Below are positions 3,287-58,990 of a stretch of DNA of 64,000 nt, piece after piece (the stretch's first letter is position 1; every line of letters starts with the position of its first letter). The notes beneath the pieces were generated by a model, which had not been told where the DNA came from, made no database searches, and saw only the letters and a list, made by a program, of their open reading frames with translations. The translations under genes and the position numbers were made by a program. The stretch is from Escherichia coli (GTDB lineage Bacteria; Pseudomonadota; Gammaproteobacteria; Enterobacterales; Enterobacteriaceae): the NCBI RefSeq assembly GCF_003334385.1, contig NZ_QOWN01000008.1; one strand, given 5' to 3'.

Positions 3287-4143
3287 TACGGATTCCGTTT
3301 GAATTTGCTGAAGTCAGGCTGACGTTTCTGGTTGAAGGCGTTGCGACCTTCCTGACCTTCTTCCGTCATGTAGAACAGCATGGTGGCGTTGCCCGCCAGC
3401 TCCTGCAGCCCCGCCTGCCCGTCACAGTCGGCGTTCAGTGCAGCTTTCAGGCAGCGCAGCGCCATCGGGCTGTTTTGCAGCATTTCGCGGCACCAACGGA
3501 CGGTTTCTTTTTCCAGATCCGCCAGCGGTACCACGGTGTTCACAAGGCCCATATCCAGCGCCTGTTTTGCGTCGTACTGACGGCACAGGAACCAGATTTC
3601 ACGCGCTTTTTTCTGCCCGACGATGCGAGCCATGTAGGAAGCGCCCCAGCCGCCGTCGAAGGAACCGACTTTCGGGCCAGTCTGACCGAAGATGGCATTA
3701 TCTGCCGCGATAGTCAGGTCGCACATCATGTGCAGAACGTGACCGCCGCCGATGGAGTAGCCAGCCACCATCGCGACAACCGGTTTCGGACAGGTACGGA
3801 TCTGACGCTGGAAGTCCAGCACATTCAGGTGATGTACGCCGGAATCATCTTTATAGCCGCCGTAATCACCACGCACTTTCTGGTCACCACCGGAGCAGAA
3901 CGCTTTATCGCCTGCACCAGTCAGAATGATCACGCCGATGTTGTCGTCATAACGCGCATCTGCCAGCGCCTGGATCATCTCTTTTACCGTCAGAGGACGG
4001 AAGGCATTGCGCACCTGCGGACGATTAATGGTGATTTTTGCGATACCGTCGGTGGATTTTTCATAACGAATGTCCTCGAAACCTTCGGAGCAGTCGTGCC
4101 ATTCAACCGGTGCGTAAAGCATTGCTTCATCAGGATAAATCAT
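3286..4143 (-). CDS. menB: 1,4-dihydroxy-2-naphthoyl-CoA synthase (285 aa)
   Basis: Crotonase-fold protein [50 protein letters not shown]...; position in men cluster. Confidence 0.95.
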
Positions 4144-27487: not shown

Positions 27488-27539
27488 TAGCATGCTTCCA
27501 GTTTTCTCAGTCAGAGACTGAGCGTTAATCGAAATTCGG

Positions 27540-36784: not shown

Positions 36785-36835
36785 GGAGTCTGCGTCGCAT
36801 CAGGCAATAAGCGCCGGATGCGACATCAGGCTCTT
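36785..36835. repeat. REP-like palindromic repeat between yfbR and yfbS
   Basis: ctgcgtcgcatcaggcaataagcgccggatgcgacatcaggc contains inverted REP-type half sites (GCCGGATGCG / CGCATCAGGC). Confidence 0.5.
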
Positions 36836-56026: not shown

Positions 56027-57544
56027 TCATCCTTCGTTATGCATTTCGAGATTTTCCACTTCGTTCTGACGTTGCACTGCTTTGGCGTCATCATTACGTA
56101 ACGTATCGAGGAAATCGAGGTAGCCCTGATCAACATCTTTGGTGACGTAGACGCCGTTGAACACCGAGCATTCAAACTGCTGGATATCCGGATTTTCAGC
56201 GCGAACGGCGTCGATCAGATCGTTCAGATCCTGGAAAATCAACCCGTCAGCACCGATGATCTGGCGAATTTCATCAACTTCGCGACCGTGAGCGATCAGT
56301 TCCGTGGCGCTCGGCATATCAATACCATAAACGTTCGGGAAGCGAATTTCCGGTGCCGCAGAAGCGAGGTACACTTTCTTCGCTCCGGCTTCGCGTGCCA
56401 TCTCGATAATCTGCTCAGAAGTGGTGCCACGGACGATGGAGTCGTCGACCAGCAGGACGTTTTTATCGCGGAACTCGGCGCGGTTGGCATTCAGTTTACG
56501 GCGCACGGACTTACGACGCAGCTGCTGGCCCGGCATGATAAAGGTGCGGCCAACATAGCGGTTTTTAACGAAGCCCTGGCGGTACGGTTTGCCCAGAATA
56601 CGAGCAATTTCCAGCGCGATATCACACGAGGTTTCTGGGATCGGGATCACCACGTCGATATCCAGATCTTCCCATTCGCGGGCAATTTTCTCGCCCAGTT
56701 TCGTGCCCATATTCACACGCGCGCTGTAAACGGAAATTTTGTCGATAAACGAGTCCGGGCGGGCAAAGTATACATACTCAAACAGGCACGGATTGCTGAC
56801 CGGATTGTCAGCACATTGACGGGTAAACAACTGCCCTTCTTCAGTGATGTAAATCGCTTCGCCCGGCGCGACGTCACGCAGGAAATCAAAGCCCAGCGTA
56901 TCGAGCGCTACGCTTTCGGAAGCGACCATATATTCTGTACGGTTCTCGTCAATATCACGTTTTCCCAGTACCAGCGGACGAATCCCGTTTGGATCGCGGA
57001 AAGCAACCATACCGTGGCCGATAATCATCGCCACACAGGCATACGCGCCGCGGATTAAGCGGTTTGTGGCAGCAATGGCAGCGAAAATATTGTCGGCTTC
57101 CAGCGGGTAGTGGCGGAAGTTGTCCAGCTCGCTGGCGAAGATATTAAGCAGAATTTCCGAGTCGGAAGTGGTGTTGATGTGGCGGCGTTTTTCTTCAAAC
57201 AGTTTTTTACGCAACTCGTGAGCGTTGGTCAGATTGCCGTTGTGGGCAAGCGTAATGCCATACGGGGAGTTAACGTAAAACGGCTGCGCTTCAGAGGCGC
57301 TGGAGCTGCCAGCCGTGGGGTAACGCACATGACCAATGCCCATATTGCCCTGCAAACGCTGCATATGGCGAGCTTCAAATACATCGCTCACCAGCCCGTT
57401 CGCTTTACGCAAACGGAAGCAGTTATTGGCATCTATGGTGATGATGCCGGCGGCATCCTGACCGCGATGCTGAAGCACCGTTAAGGCATCATAAATCGAC
57501 TGGTTAACCGGCATAACACCGGCGATACCGACAATACCGCACAT
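56027..57544 (-). CDS. purF: Amidophosphoribosyltransferase (505 aa)
   Basis: N-terminal MCGIVGIAG (Ntn Cys) plus PRTase motif. Confidence 0.97.
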
Positions 57545-57580: not shown

Positions 57581-58069
57581 TTACGCTCTGGGCAAGAAAC
57601 TTGACGAGCTTTGCAGATAATCAAAAAACCATCTGATGATAAAACTGAATTGCGGGATCAGCTGTGATTTGCTCCAGTCTTCGCTTTTCGACACCCCGGT
57701 AAAGGAGTCGAGAAAGAAGAGAATGGCAGCAACAATCAACACACCGCGCAACGCACCGAAACAGACGCCCAGCACCCGATCGGTGCCTGACAACCCCGTT
57801 TTCTCCACCAACTGGCCTATCACGAAGTTCACGATAGCACCAACGATCAGGGTAGCGATAAACAGTACCGCGATGGCAATCCCATTTCGAACCAGTTCGT
57901 CTTCAAAGCCCGTAAACCAGACTGACAGGTAAGTGTAGTAATGACTGGCAACAAAGAAAGCACAACCCCATGTCACCAGCGATAACGCTTCACGAACAAA
58001 GCCGCGGATCAGGCTAACCAGAGAGGAAAAAGCAATCACCGCGATTATGGCGTAATCAATCCAGACCAT
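57581..58069 (-). CDS. cvpA: Colicin V production protein CvpA (162 aa)
   Basis: MVWIDYAIIAVIAFSSLVSLIRGFVREALSLVTWG...; membrane protein upstream of purF. Confidence 0.93.
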   Translation of the reverse strand: MVWIDYAIIAVIAFSSLVSLIRGFVREALSLVTWGCAFFVASHYYTYLSVWFTGFEDELVRNGIAIAVLFIATLIVGAIVNFVIGQLVEKTGLSGTDRVLGVCFGALRGVLIVAAILFFLDSFTGVSKSEDWSKSQLIPQFSFIIRWFFDYLQSSSSFLPRA

Positions 58070-58125
58070 ATGTGTCCCACGATTTTACGCCCTGTCATCC
58101 TGTTCGGGGCGCATTCTAACAGAAA

Positions 58126-58143
58126 AAGAAAACGTTTGCGTAG
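58126..58143 (-). promoter_or_regulatory. PurR operator (PUR box) in the cvpA-purF-ubiX promoter
   Basis: Minus-strand reading ACGCAAACGTTTTCTT matches the PurR box consensus; about 60 bp upstream of the cvpA ATG. Confidence 0.65.
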
Positions 58144-58199
58144 GGATTTCCTTCCCGCGCATCAATAAAAATGGCGCTGAAAAAATATTCAACGCCATC

Positions 58200-58320
58200 G
58201 ACTTTTTATGCCTTTGCGGCATCGGGCAATGCGTGTCGGATGCGGCGTAAACGCCTTATCCGACCTACGGTTCTACCCCTGCGTAGGCCTGATAAGACGC
58301 GCCAGCGTCGCATCAGGCAA
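58200..58320. repeat. BIME: two inverted REP elements between dedD and cvpA
   Basis: gtgtcggatgcggcgtaaacgccttatccgacctacgg (58233-58270) and inverted copy ctgcgtaggcctgataagacgcgccagcgtcgcatcaggca (58280-58319). Confidence 0.7.
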
Positions 58321-58327
58321 GACCGTA

Positions 58328-58990
58328 TTAATTCGGCGTATAGCCCATTACCACGCCACTTAAGCCAGAAAGTTGCTTCAACTCACCCAGCGAACCTTTC
58401 AGCTTATCTTTCGAGGCATCCGGCCCAACCAGAATACGGGTAATTTTACCCTGCACTGGCGTGGATGGCGACGTATAAACCCGATAACCGGCACCGCGCA
58501 GCTTACCGACAATCTCATTCACTTTATCGGCATTTTTCAGCGCACCCAGTTGCACAACATAGGCTTTACCCGTCGGTGCAGCTTTTTCTTCCACGACCGG
58601 CTTCGGTTCTGGCTTCGGCGCAGGTGGTGCTTCAACCTTTGGTTTAGGCGGCTCCACCGGTTTCGGCTTCGGTGGGGCGACCGGTGCAGGTTCCGGTTCA
58701 AACTCGGTGTTATTGGCTGCAATAGTGGCCGGATCGAGCGACGGTGCTGCGGCATCACCTGCCCGCACCTCTTCCGCTGCGCCTTCCGGCGGCTGCGTCG
58801 GTAACGCCTGGGTGGCGGCTGGCATCATATCAGGCTCATCACGATCGCCCGCTTTCGGCACCAGCGGGATAGCCGCGAACTCATCCTGATAATGTTTTTT
58901 CTGCCCGTCCAGCAGCCCTGGAAGTACAATCACCCCCAGCGCCACCAGCACGATCGTGCCCACTAACCGATTCTGAAACTTACTTGCCAC
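58328..58990 (-). CDS. dedD: Cell-division protein DedD, SPOR domain (220 aa; probable GTG start)
   Basis: (V/M)ASKFQNRLVGTIVLVALGVIVLPGLLDG... with Pro/Lys/Glu-rich linker and C-terminal SPOR domain; overlaps the folC 3' end by 11 nt. Confidence 0.88.
   Translation of the reverse strand: MASKFQNRLVGTIVLVALGVIVLPGLLDGQKKHYQDEFAAIPLVPKAGDRDEPDMMPAATQALPTQPPEGAAEEVRAGDAAAPSLDPATIAANNTEFEPEPAPVAPPKPKPVEPPKPKVEAPPAPKPEPKPVVEEKAAPTGKAYVVQLGALKNADKVNEIVGKLRGAGYRVYTSPSTPVQGKITRILVGPDASKDKLKGSLGELKQLSGLSGVVMGYTPN

What the first reader, a model, noticed from the sequence alone, without database searches (positions are those of the whole stretch)
58200..58320. BIME (paired inverted REPs) between cvpA and dedD
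Two REP copies in opposite orientation form a classic bacterial interspersed mosaic element, separating the pdxB-usg-truA-dedA-accD-folC-dedD side from the cvpA promoter. BIMEs bind IHF/gyrase and can act as transcriptional insulators or RNA stabilisers.
Basis: partly seen in the sequence, partly recalled or inferred. Interest (0 to 1): 0.2.

Follow-up and report, generated by a model that had tools for sequence, protein, structure and literature searches.

The report
Known REP pair (BIME-2) after dedD
The finding is a real but ordinary and already catalogued E. coli repeat: two inverted REP hairpins (one BIME-2 unit) in the tail of the dedD message, whose copy number runs from 0 to 7 between strains.

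Summary
Confirmed. Window 58235-58318 holds two REPs in opposite orientation. A Y-type REP lies at 58235-58268 (+), 2 mismatches to consensus. A Z2-type REP lies at 58283-58318 (-), 0 mismatches. They sit tail to tail around a 14-nt linker. Neither consensus matched in 100 shuffles.

This is one BIME-2 unit, not the IHF-binding BIME-1: there is no long linker and no IHF consensus. A published gyrase Topo-seq table already lists it as a BIME-2 between cvpA and dedD, with gyrase cleavage sites.

It starts 9 nt after the dedD stop codon, upstream of a hairpin plus T-tract terminator (58199-58170). That terminator and the PurR-controlled cvpA promoter are conserved across Enterobacterales. So the terminator, not the BIME, most likely separates dedD from cvpA.

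The 91-bp unit is polymorphic. Among 5,426 E. coli genomes, 136 have a precise empty site, most have one copy, and about a quarter have arrays. Alleles with 0, 1, 2, 3, 4, 6 and 7 units were read directly. E. albertii has two units. About 105 other species lack E. coli-type REPs here.

Most likely it is a semi-selfish repeat with side effects: a gyrase site in DNA and 3'-UTR hairpins in RNA. Low interest; already known.

The parts
58283..58318 (-). Z2-type REP. It reads GCCTGATGCGACGCTGGCGCGTCTTATCAGGCCTAC on the transcribed (-) strand and is the first hairpin of the dedD 3' UTR, starting 9 nt after the stop codon.
   Evidence: 0 mismatches to consensus and 0 of 100 shuffles matching. Near-perfect match to the Z2 half of Rfam naRNA4 (the Y/Z2 composition of that RNA is from PMC4550694). 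RNA hairpin -21.4 kcal/mol, z = -4.6.
58269..58282 (-). Short tail-to-tail linker ('S' type), gcaggggtagaacc on the - strand. It contains an extra GTAG.
   Evidence: Read from the sequence. 14 nt, no IHF consensus. The same linker recurs in every unit of multi-copy alleles.
58235..58268 (+). Y-type REP. The consensus orientation is on the + strand; on the transcript it reads GTAGGTCGGATAAGGCGTTTACGCCGCATCCGAC.
   Evidence: 2 mismatches to the Y consensus and 0 of 100 shuffles matching. Matches the Y half of naRNA4. RNA hairpin -18.8 kcal/mol, z = -4.4.
58225..58315 (-). The 91-bp unit that is gained or lost between strains. It is bounded by the direct repeat TTGCC, so the frame can be slid by up to 5 nt.
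   Evidence: The spacer is 167 bp (0 units), 258 (1), 440 (3), 531 (4), 713 (6) or 804 (7), that is 167 + n x 91. Empty-site junction TTGCC|CGATGCC.
58208..58222 (-). Small hairpin AUGCC-GCAAA-GGCAU between the BIME and the terminator. It is part of the ancestral spacer.
   Evidence: Predicted in the fold of the 3' UTR. Related GCC...GGC sequence is present in Citrobacter, Klebsiella and Pseudescherichia.
58162..58199 (-). Intrinsic-terminator-like hairpin (12 pairs) followed by TTTTTATT. It is the probable end of the folC-dedD transcript and the probable insulator of the cvpA promoter.
   Evidence: The terminator scan finds only this site in 57900-58500. -18 kcal/mol, z = -5.9. A hairpin plus T-tract at the same position recurs in most of the 108 distinct Enterobacterales spacers folded, with lineage-specific stems.
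58113..58141 (-). cvpA-purF promoter core: PurR box ACGCAAACGTTTTC (58141-58128) and -10 TAGAAT (58118-58113).
   Evidence: Read from the sequence. The exact pattern recurs upstream of cvpA in at least 120 genomes of Enterobacterales and a few others. The assignment as a PurR operator and -10 rests on my own knowledge of the pur regulon, not on a test here.
58328..58990 (-). dedD coding sequence; the BIME lies in its 3' UTR.
   Evidence: ORF list. MG1655 annotation b2314.
57581..58069 (-). cvpA coding sequence, first gene of cvpA-purF-ubiX downstream of the spacer.
   Evidence: ORF list. MG1655 annotation b2313.

Best explanation
The element is one unit of a BIME-2, the E. coli repeat made of a Z2 REP and a Y REP in inverse orientation around a short linker. 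It sits in the 3' untranslated region of dedD, 9 nt after the stop codon and 35 nt upstream of a conserved intrinsic terminator. That terminator in turn precedes the PurR-controlled cvpA promoter.

The element is a non-autonomous, semi-selfish repeat. The 91-bp unit is duplicated and lost in tandem, giving 0 to 7 copies among E. coli. The likely routes are recombination or slippage between units, or the REP-associated transposase TnpA(REP); this step is inferred.

Where present it has two side effects. As DNA it is a preferred gyrase binding and cleavage site (published for this very element). As RNA its two stable hairpins form the end of the dedD message once the terminator tail is trimmed. 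This would protect the folC-dedD mRNA from 3'-to-5' exonucleases. Because the first hairpin starts less than 16 nt after the stop codon, it may also slow ribosome release and dampen DedD synthesis (inferred from the general REP rule, not tested for dedD).

It does not bind IHF, and it is probably not what insulates cvpA from dedD transcription; the downstream terminator most likely does that.
For: - REP identity: 2 and 0 mismatches; 0 of 100 shuffles; palindromes; each REP matches half of the naRNA4 model.
- BIME-2 definition (z2 + y, short S linker, tandem copies, variable number between strains): PMC3333891. The linker is 14 nt with no IHF consensus.
- Copy number: sequence-verified alleles with 0, 1, about 2, 3, 4, 6 and 7 units, spacer = 167 + 91n. 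The empty junction occurs in 136 of 5,426 genomes. About 1,400 genomes break at the end of the Z2 REP, which indicates arrays. In a quantile sample of 59 chromosomes, 37 had one copy, 2 a decayed copy, 2 about two, 9 three, 7 four, 1 seven and 1 none (sizes checked).
- Taxonomic range: E. albertii has 2 units. None of about 105 other Enterobacterales species has E. coli Y/Z2 REPs in this spacer.
- Already catalogued: Sutormin et al. 2019 Table DS3 lists 'BIMEs2 ... 83 bp ... cvpA-dedD' with gyrase cleavage sites RifCfx 2, Micro 1. That paper reports enrichment of gyrase sites in BIME-2, mostly in y REPs.
- RNA side: hairpins of -21.4 and -18.8 kcal/mol. The whole 3' UTR fold has z = -5.8.
- General REP behaviour: REPs protect 3' ends (PMC6061677). 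The under-16-nt rule is cited in PMC12306157.
- Terminator: the only terminator-like site, conserved across genera, and retained in the one empty-allele spacer read (L004).
Against: - No experiment or transcript map for dedD was available here. Transcription through the BIME, the position of the mRNA 3' end and any effect on DedD are all inferred.
- The gyrase signal at this element is small: 0 sites with ciprofloxacin or oxolinic acid, 2 with rifampicin plus ciprofloxacin, 1 with microcin B17.
- With an intrinsic terminator 35 nt downstream, the REP hairpins may add little to mRNA stability.
- That 2.5% of E. coli and nearly all other genera do without the element argues that any function is dispensable.
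- The mechanism of unit gain and loss is not resolved. The right-hand empty-site boundary is C|C, not the C|T that TnpA(REP) needed for cleavage in vitro.
Confidence: 0.85

Rival explanations
1. It is a BIME-1 (RIP-type) element that works by binding IHF between the two REPs, bending the DNA upstream of the cvpA promoter.
For: Two REPs lie in inverse orientation, tail to tail, as in BIME-1.
Against: BIME-1 is defined as z1 + y with a long, conserved L linker that carries the IHF site, and it occurs as single copies (PMC3333891). Here the linker is 14 nt and no WATCAANNNNTTR occurs in 58070-58330 on either strand. The second REP matches the Z2 half of naRNA4. The unit forms tandem arrays in other strains. 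A published table files it under BIME-2.
Confidence: 0.02
2. The REP pair is itself the transcription terminator or attenuator of the folC-dedD operon and thereby the insulator of the cvpA promoter.
For: The hairpins are stable. BIMEs have been reported to attenuate transcription (Espeli, Moulin and Boccard 2001, seen only as a reference in PMC6061677).
Against: Neither REP is followed by a T-tract, and the terminator scan does not call them. A canonical hairpin plus T-tract lies 35 nt further downstream. It is conserved in genera that have no REP here and is present in the empty-allele spacer that was read. A partial, Rho-linked attenuation by the BIME on top of the terminator is not excluded.
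Confidence: 0.08
3. It encodes a nucleoid-associated, HU-binding small RNA of the naRNA4 (REP325) family that helps condense the chromosome.
For: The only Rfam similarity is to naRNA4. In multi-copy alleles and in E. albertii every Y-to-Z2 junction on the dedD-sense strand scores 73-83 bits, above the gathering score of 59.5.
Against: In this window the matches reach 38 bits, below 59.5. Only one unit is present and its order on the transcript is Z2 then Y, so no complete Y-linker-Z2 unit exists. The head-to-head linker of the arrays is 7 nt, against about 13 in the naRNA4 consensus. Scoring above the gathering score mostly reflects that both are made of Y and Z2 REPs. No HU-binding data exist for this locus.
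Confidence: 0.04
4. It is a chance GC-rich inverted repeat with no relation to the REP family.
For: None beyond the general frequency of short palindromes in intergenic DNA.
Against: 0 of 100 shuffles give either consensus match. The same sequences recur many times per genome, with a median of 17 megablast places per E. coli genome for a query containing them. They form 91-bp tandem arrays at this site in other strains.
Confidence: 0.01

Closest known systems
BIME-2 of E. coli (Y + Z2 REPs with S linker; for example the arrays between sucC and sucB, between tldD and yhdP, and REP325 between yjdM and yjdN)
   Same: It has the same two REP types in inverse orientation and a short tail-to-tail linker. 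The tandem unit varies in copy number between strains. It is intergenic, at the 3' end of a gene. Gyrase cleavage is recorded in it.
   Different: Nothing essential differs. In this window it is a single unit rather than an array, and its gyrase signal is weak compared with the strong BIME-2 sites named in PMC6379681.
BIME-1 / RIP elements (Y + Z1 REPs flanking an L linker with an IHF site)
   Same: A pair of inverted REPs, tail to tail, including a Y REP.
   Different: There is no L linker and no IHF consensus, the partner REP is Z2, and the element is amplifiable in tandem.
naRNA4 / CssrE (Rfam RF02564), transcribed from the REP325 BIME-2 array
   Same: It is built from the same Y and Z2 hairpins. 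Multi-copy alleles of this locus pass the family's gathering score on the transcribed strand.
   Different: The window's single unit has the hairpins in the other order (Z2-S-Y) and scores 38 bits against a gathering score of 59.5. No evidence of HU binding exists for this locus.
REPtron / TnpA(REP) (RAYT) system that cleaves and recombines BIMEs
   Same: Each Z2 REP starts with TGCC|TGAT, the 'iREP type I' cleavage site described for TnpA(REP). GTAG/CTAC tetranucleotides flank the stems. Unit boundaries in arrays coincide with that site.
   Different: No tnpA(REP) gene was looked for in the window. The right-hand boundary of the empty-site allele is C|C, not the required C|T. Plain recombination between TTGCC(Y)GATGC repeats explains the alleles equally well.

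Membership tests
REP (E. coli repetitive extragenic palindrome) | Imperfect palindrome of about 35 nt that folds into a stem-loop with an internal mismatch | tested here: met
   14-nt arms at 86% complementarity for each REP. RNA hairpins of -21.4 and -18.8 kcal/mol, z about -4.5.
REP (E. coli repetitive extragenic palindrome) | Match to the Y or Z consensus, including the GTAG/CTAC tetranucleotide at the foot | tested here: met
   Y has 2 mismatches and Z2 has 0, both ending in CCTAC. 0 of 100 shuffles match. The consensus strings were typed from my own knowledge. The naRNA4 model independently supports them.
REP (E. coli repetitive extragenic palindrome) | Extragenic and present in many copies per genome | tested here: met
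   It lies between the dedD stop and the cvpA start. A 501-bp query containing it finds a median of 17 places per E. coli genome.
BIME-2 | Composed of a Y REP and a Z2 REP in inverse orientation | tested here: met
   The Y/Z2 identity of the naRNA4 halves is from PMC4550694. The definition is from PMC3333891.
BIME-2 | Short S linker between the REPs, without the IHF-site-bearing L linker | tested here: met
   The linker is 14 nt. No IHF consensus occurs in the spacer.
BIME-2 | Occurs as tandem copies, with the number at a locus variable between strains | tested here: met
   The window has a single unit. 0 to 7 units of 91 bp are found at this locus in other E. coli, and 2 in E. albertii.
BIME-2 | Bound and cleaved by DNA gyrase in vivo | not testable with these tools
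   Published Topo-seq Table DS3 lists this element with 2 (RifCfx) and 1 (microcin B17) cleavage sites, and 0 with Cfx or Oxo.
BIME-1 | Z1 + Y REPs separated by a long conserved L linker that frequently carries an IHF site | tested here: not met
   The linker is 14 nt, there is no WATCAANNNNTTR, and the partner REP is Z2.
naRNA4 (Rfam RF02564) | Score at or above the family's gathering threshold (59.5 bits) | tested here: not met
   The window scores 38.3, 38.1 and 35.3 bits. Multi-copy alleles L002, L003 and E. albertii L010 score 73-83 bits on the transcribed strand.
Intrinsic (Rho-independent) terminator | GC-rich hairpin immediately followed by a T-tract | tested here: not met
   The REPs are not called by the scan. 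The only site called is 58199-58170 plus TTTATT, downstream of the BIME.

The most novel reading that the evidence does not exclude
The number of BIME-2 units in the dedD 3' UTR (0 to 7, apparently structured by lineage) might act as a heritable 'dial'. It could set DedD (cell-division protein) output, read-through into cvpA-purF, or local supercoiling, differently in different E. coli lineages. In arrays of two or more units it might also yield naRNA4-like HU-binding RNAs from the dedD transcript.
Probability: 0.08. Interest if true: 0.4.

Novelty: already known. Interest (0 to 1): 0.08.

Why it matters
It matters little beyond correct annotation. The element is a textbook BIME-2 already present in published catalogues.

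Three points are useful for anyone working on this locus. First, it should be read as a gyrase-type (BIME-2) element, not an IHF-type one. Second, the conserved terminator downstream of it is the likely boundary between the folC-dedD and cvpA-purF units. Third, the site is a clean natural series of 0 to 7 identical 91-bp units in otherwise near-identical contexts. That series could serve as a ready-made test bed for the proposed effects of REPs on mRNA stability, translation termination and gyrase recruitment.

Tried and rejected
- Rfam at gathering thresholds gives nothing for the region; only sub-threshold naRNA4 hits appear.
- The RefSeq copy of MG1655 shows no REP feature in this stretch in the table returned, only CDS rows. 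The EcoCyc REP number could therefore not be given.
- My first attempt to count empty-site alleles used a 60-nt junction query. It failed because the CATC(A/G)GGCAA homology let single-copy genomes align over 80% of the query. A 44-nt query designed so that only a continuous junction can seed gave a clean count of 136.
- The Liang, Rudd and Deutscher 2015 paper (PMC4427526) is not held. The under-16-nt rule is therefore cited second-hand from PMC12306157.
- Supplements of the RepRanger paper and of the Term-seq paper held nothing on dedD or cvpA.
- A literature search for dedD/cvpA/purF/terminator gave no paper on the spacer itself.
- A search for the IHF consensus was negative.
It did not return Salmonella or E. 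fergusonii, so those are untested.
- Reading the proximal flank TTGCCCGATGCCGC as a truncated third REP was considered and dropped, because related sequence is present in genera without REPs here.

Full report
**1. What is in the sequence**

The window around the finding is the E. coli purF-cvpA-dedD-folC region, all on the minus strand. The genes are purF 56027-57544, cvpA 57581-58069, dedD 58328-58990 and folC 58980-60248. The 258-bp cvpA-dedD spacer (58070-58327) is identical to that of MG1655, and the window differs from MG1655 by three SNPs in about 11.7 kb.

Within the spacer there are two REPs.
- GTCGGATGCGGCGTAAACGCCTTATCCGACCTAC at 58235-58268 (+) matches the Y REP consensus with 2 mismatches.
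- GCCTGATGCGACGCTGGCGCGTCTTATCAGGCCTAC at 58283-58318 (-) matches the Z2-type consensus exactly.

Neither pattern occurred in any of 100 shuffles, and these are the only full REP matches in the 64-kb window. Each REP is its own imperfect palindrome, and the two are inverted copies of each other, tail to tail (CCTAC ... GTAGG) across 14 nt.

**2. Which kind of BIME**

Ton-Hoang et al. (PMC3333891) give the definitions.
- BIME-1 is z1 + y with a long conserved L linker that frequently carries an IHF site, and it occurs as single copies.
- BIME-2 is z2 + y with a short S linker. It occurs in tandem copies whose number at a locus varies between strains.

Four lines of evidence place this element in BIME-2.
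- The linker is 14 nt, and the IHF consensus is absent from the whole spacer on both strands.
- The only Rfam similarity is to naRNA4. That RNA comes from the REP325 array, whose units are Y + Z2 (PMC4550694).
- The 58283-58318 REP aligns almost perfectly to the Z2 half of that model, and the 58235-58268 REP to the Y half.
- The supplementary table DS3 of Sutormin et al. 2019 lists exactly this element as 'BIMEs2', 83 bp, '<cvpA-<dedD'.

So it is a BIME-2, and it is already catalogued.

**3. Anatomy along the transcript**

The order on the minus strand is as follows.

| Feature | Window coordinates |
|---|---|
| dedD stop codon TAA | 58330-58328 |
| 9 nt of spacer | 58327-58319 |
| Z2 hairpin (-21.4 kcal/mol) | 58318-58283 |
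| S linker | 58282-58269 |
| Y hairpin (-18.8 kcal/mol) | 58268-58235 |
| Small hairpin | 58222-58208 |
| 12-pair hairpin followed by TTTTTATT (-18 kcal/mol) | 58199-58170, T-tract to 58162 |
| PurR box ACGCAAACGTTTTC | 58141-58128 |
| -10 hexamer TAGAAT | 58118-58113 |
| cvpA ATG | 58069 |

The 12-pair hairpin is the only terminator-like site the scan finds in 57900-58500. The BIME therefore lies inside the probable 3' UTR of dedD, upstream of a canonical intrinsic terminator. That the BIME is transcribed is an inference from this layout; no transcript data were available.

**4. Comparison across E. coli**

A 501-bp query across the spacer matched all 5,426 complete genomes. Only 4,024 covered at least 80% of it in one place, and the rest broke exactly at the outer end of the Z2 REP.

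Reading the sequences showed why. The spacer length is 167 + 91n bp.

| Units (n) | Spacer (bp) | Example strain |
|---|---|---|
| 0 | 167 | CUVET16-394 |
| 1 | 258 | MG1655 and this window |
| about 2, with small deletions | 346, 329 | GMF054, E57 |
| 3 | 440 | JJ1886, 24AR0180 |
| 4 | 531 | O157:H7 ECP17-46 |
| 6 | 713 | O55:H7 DEC5D |
| 7 | 804 | 16843 |

SMS-3-5 carries one unit with a 23-bp internal deletion (235 bp).

Arrays are strictly Z2 - S(14) - Y - s(7, agccgtt) repeats. In all alleles with a unit that were read, the first Z2 starts 9 nt after the stop codon.

A junction-specific 44-mer found the precise empty site in 136 genomes, or 2.5%. I also used the 7-unit allele as a query and sampled 59 chromosomes at even steps down the ranking. 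That sample gave 37 with one unit, 2 with a decayed unit, 2 with about two, 9 with three, 7 with four, 1 with seven and 1 with none (the length-to-copy conversion was checked). This is exactly the behaviour described for BIME-2.

The unit is bounded by TTGCC direct repeats. Its left boundary coincides with the TGCC|TGAT 'iREP I' cleavage site of TnpA(REP). The right boundary of the empty allele is C|C rather than the required C|T. I therefore cannot tell transposase-mediated events from recombination or slippage.

**5. Comparison across species**

An exact-pattern scan for the cvpA promoter (PurR box plus -10) returned 120 loci. In 109 of them dedD and cvpA are adjacent.

E. coli-type Y/Z2 REPs in the spacer were found only in Escherichia: E. 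coli, and E. albertii with two units. None was found in about 105 other species.

The promoter-proximal 125 nt (terminator hairpin, PurR box, -10 and 5' UTR) is almost invariant across Enterobacteriaceae genera. A hairpin plus T-tract at the same position persists, with different stem sequences, in Yersinia, Serratia, Pantoea, Providencia, Proteus, Morganella and Rosenbergiella. Covariation is modest: 2 of the 6 consensus pairs show compensatory changes.

The segment just after the dedD stop is the variable part. Citrobacter species carry their own Y-like REP there, and Citrobacter sp. FP75 a pair. Enterobacter cloacae carries an unrelated 60-nt GC-rich palindrome. Trabulsiella carries almost nothing.

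Two inferences follow. The terminator and promoter are the ancestral, constrained features. The BIME is a lineage-specific passenger in a permissive slot. Because E. albertii and 97% of E. coli have it, the rare empty allele is more likely a secondary loss.

**6. How it most likely works**

*Shown here.* The identity, the anatomy, the polymorphism, the taxonomic restriction, and the presence of a conserved terminator downstream.

*Taken from the literature.*
- Gyrase cleavage sites were mapped in this element: 2 with rifampicin plus ciprofloxacin, 1 with microcin B17, none with ciprofloxacin or oxolinic acid alone.
- BIME-2 as a class is enriched for transcription-independent gyrase sites, mainly in y REPs.
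- REP hairpins protect upstream mRNA from 3'-5' exonucleases.
- REPs fewer than 16 nt from a stop codon down-regulate translation (cited; the primary paper is not held).

*Inferred.* The element is transcribed as part of the dedD 3' UTR. Its hairpins form a second line of exonuclease protection behind the terminator. At 9 nt from the stop codon it may lower DedD output.

Given that 136 E. coli genomes and nearly all other genera lack it, any such function is dispensable. I therefore commit to 'semi-selfish BIME-2 with gyrase-site and 3'-UTR-hairpin side effects' at about 0.85 for the identity and general mechanism. Confidence in any specific phenotypic effect on dedD is much lower.

**7. Rivals**

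- BIME-1 with IHF is excluded by a tested defining feature.
- 'The BIME is the terminator or insulator' is unlikely. It lacks a T-tract, and a conserved terminator follows it. Partial attenuation is not excluded.
- 'naRNA4-like HU-binding RNA' fails Rfam's threshold in this window, at 38 against 59.5 bits. Multi-copy alleles pass it on the transcribed strand at 73-83 bits. That mostly reflects shared building blocks.
- Chance is excluded.

**8. Verdict**

The refinements are that the relevant partner is gyrase rather than IHF, that the insulating role probably belongs to the adjacent terminator, and that the locus is a 0-to-7-copy polymorphism. The element is already known and of low interest.

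Noticed in passing
window 58070-58200: The terminator-like hairpin, PurR box, -10 and 5' UTR of cvpA are almost invariant in sequence across Enterobacteriaceae genera (Citrobacter, Enterobacter, Klebsiella, Kosakonia, Trabulsiella, Pseudescherichia). This includes the loop and T-tract of the hairpin. Such conservation is unusual for a mere terminator and suggests an added role, for example as an upstream promoter element.
   Followed up: partly
L008, L053, L120, L018 (Citrobacter) and L013 (Enterobacter cloacae), spacer just after the dedD stop: Other genera carry different palindromic repeats in the same slot. Citrobacter has a Y-like REP, and Citrobacter sp. FP75 a Z-like plus Y-like pair. 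E. cloacae has a 60-nt palindrome, CCCCTCACCCTAACCCTAACCCTCTCCCC...GGGGAGAGGGTTAGGGTTAGGGTGAGGGG. The site looks like a recurrent landing place for hairpin repeats.
   Followed up: partly
window 20453-20488 (+): A single Y-like REP, GTCGGATGCACCGCGAAGGCGGCTTATCCGACCTAC, with the CCTAC tail. It is too divergent in its loop to match the consensus search at 3 mismatches.
   Followed up: no
window 36786-36830: Two REP-head-like fragments face each other (GCGTCGCATCAGGC aataagc GCCGGATGCGACATCAGGC). This is possibly a decayed REP pair or a terminator built from REP remnants.
   Followed up: no
window 27495-27537 (-): Rfam nuoG RNA (RF01748) matches at 50.3 bits, above its gathering score of 33. It is the only family in the window that passes its threshold.
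   Followed up: no
L119 (Serratia marcescens MSU97), L062 (Pseudocitrobacter faecalis), L095 (Erwinia MAG): The dedD-cvpA spacers are unusually long, at 3,326, 620 and 549 nt, against 130-350 nt in most species. The content was not examined.
   Followed up: no
window 58070-58327 (cvpA-dedD spacer): A genomic SELEX study lists an RpoN-holoenzyme binding peak in the cvpA/dedD spacer, assigned to cvpA-purF-ubiX (PMC8743547). I did not look for a -24/-12 element systematically.
   Followed up: no
window 57629, 60222, 62639: The window is not MG1655 itself. There are three single-base differences in about 11.7 kb, one of which changes a CvpA residue. The spacer with the BIME is identical.
   Followed up: partly
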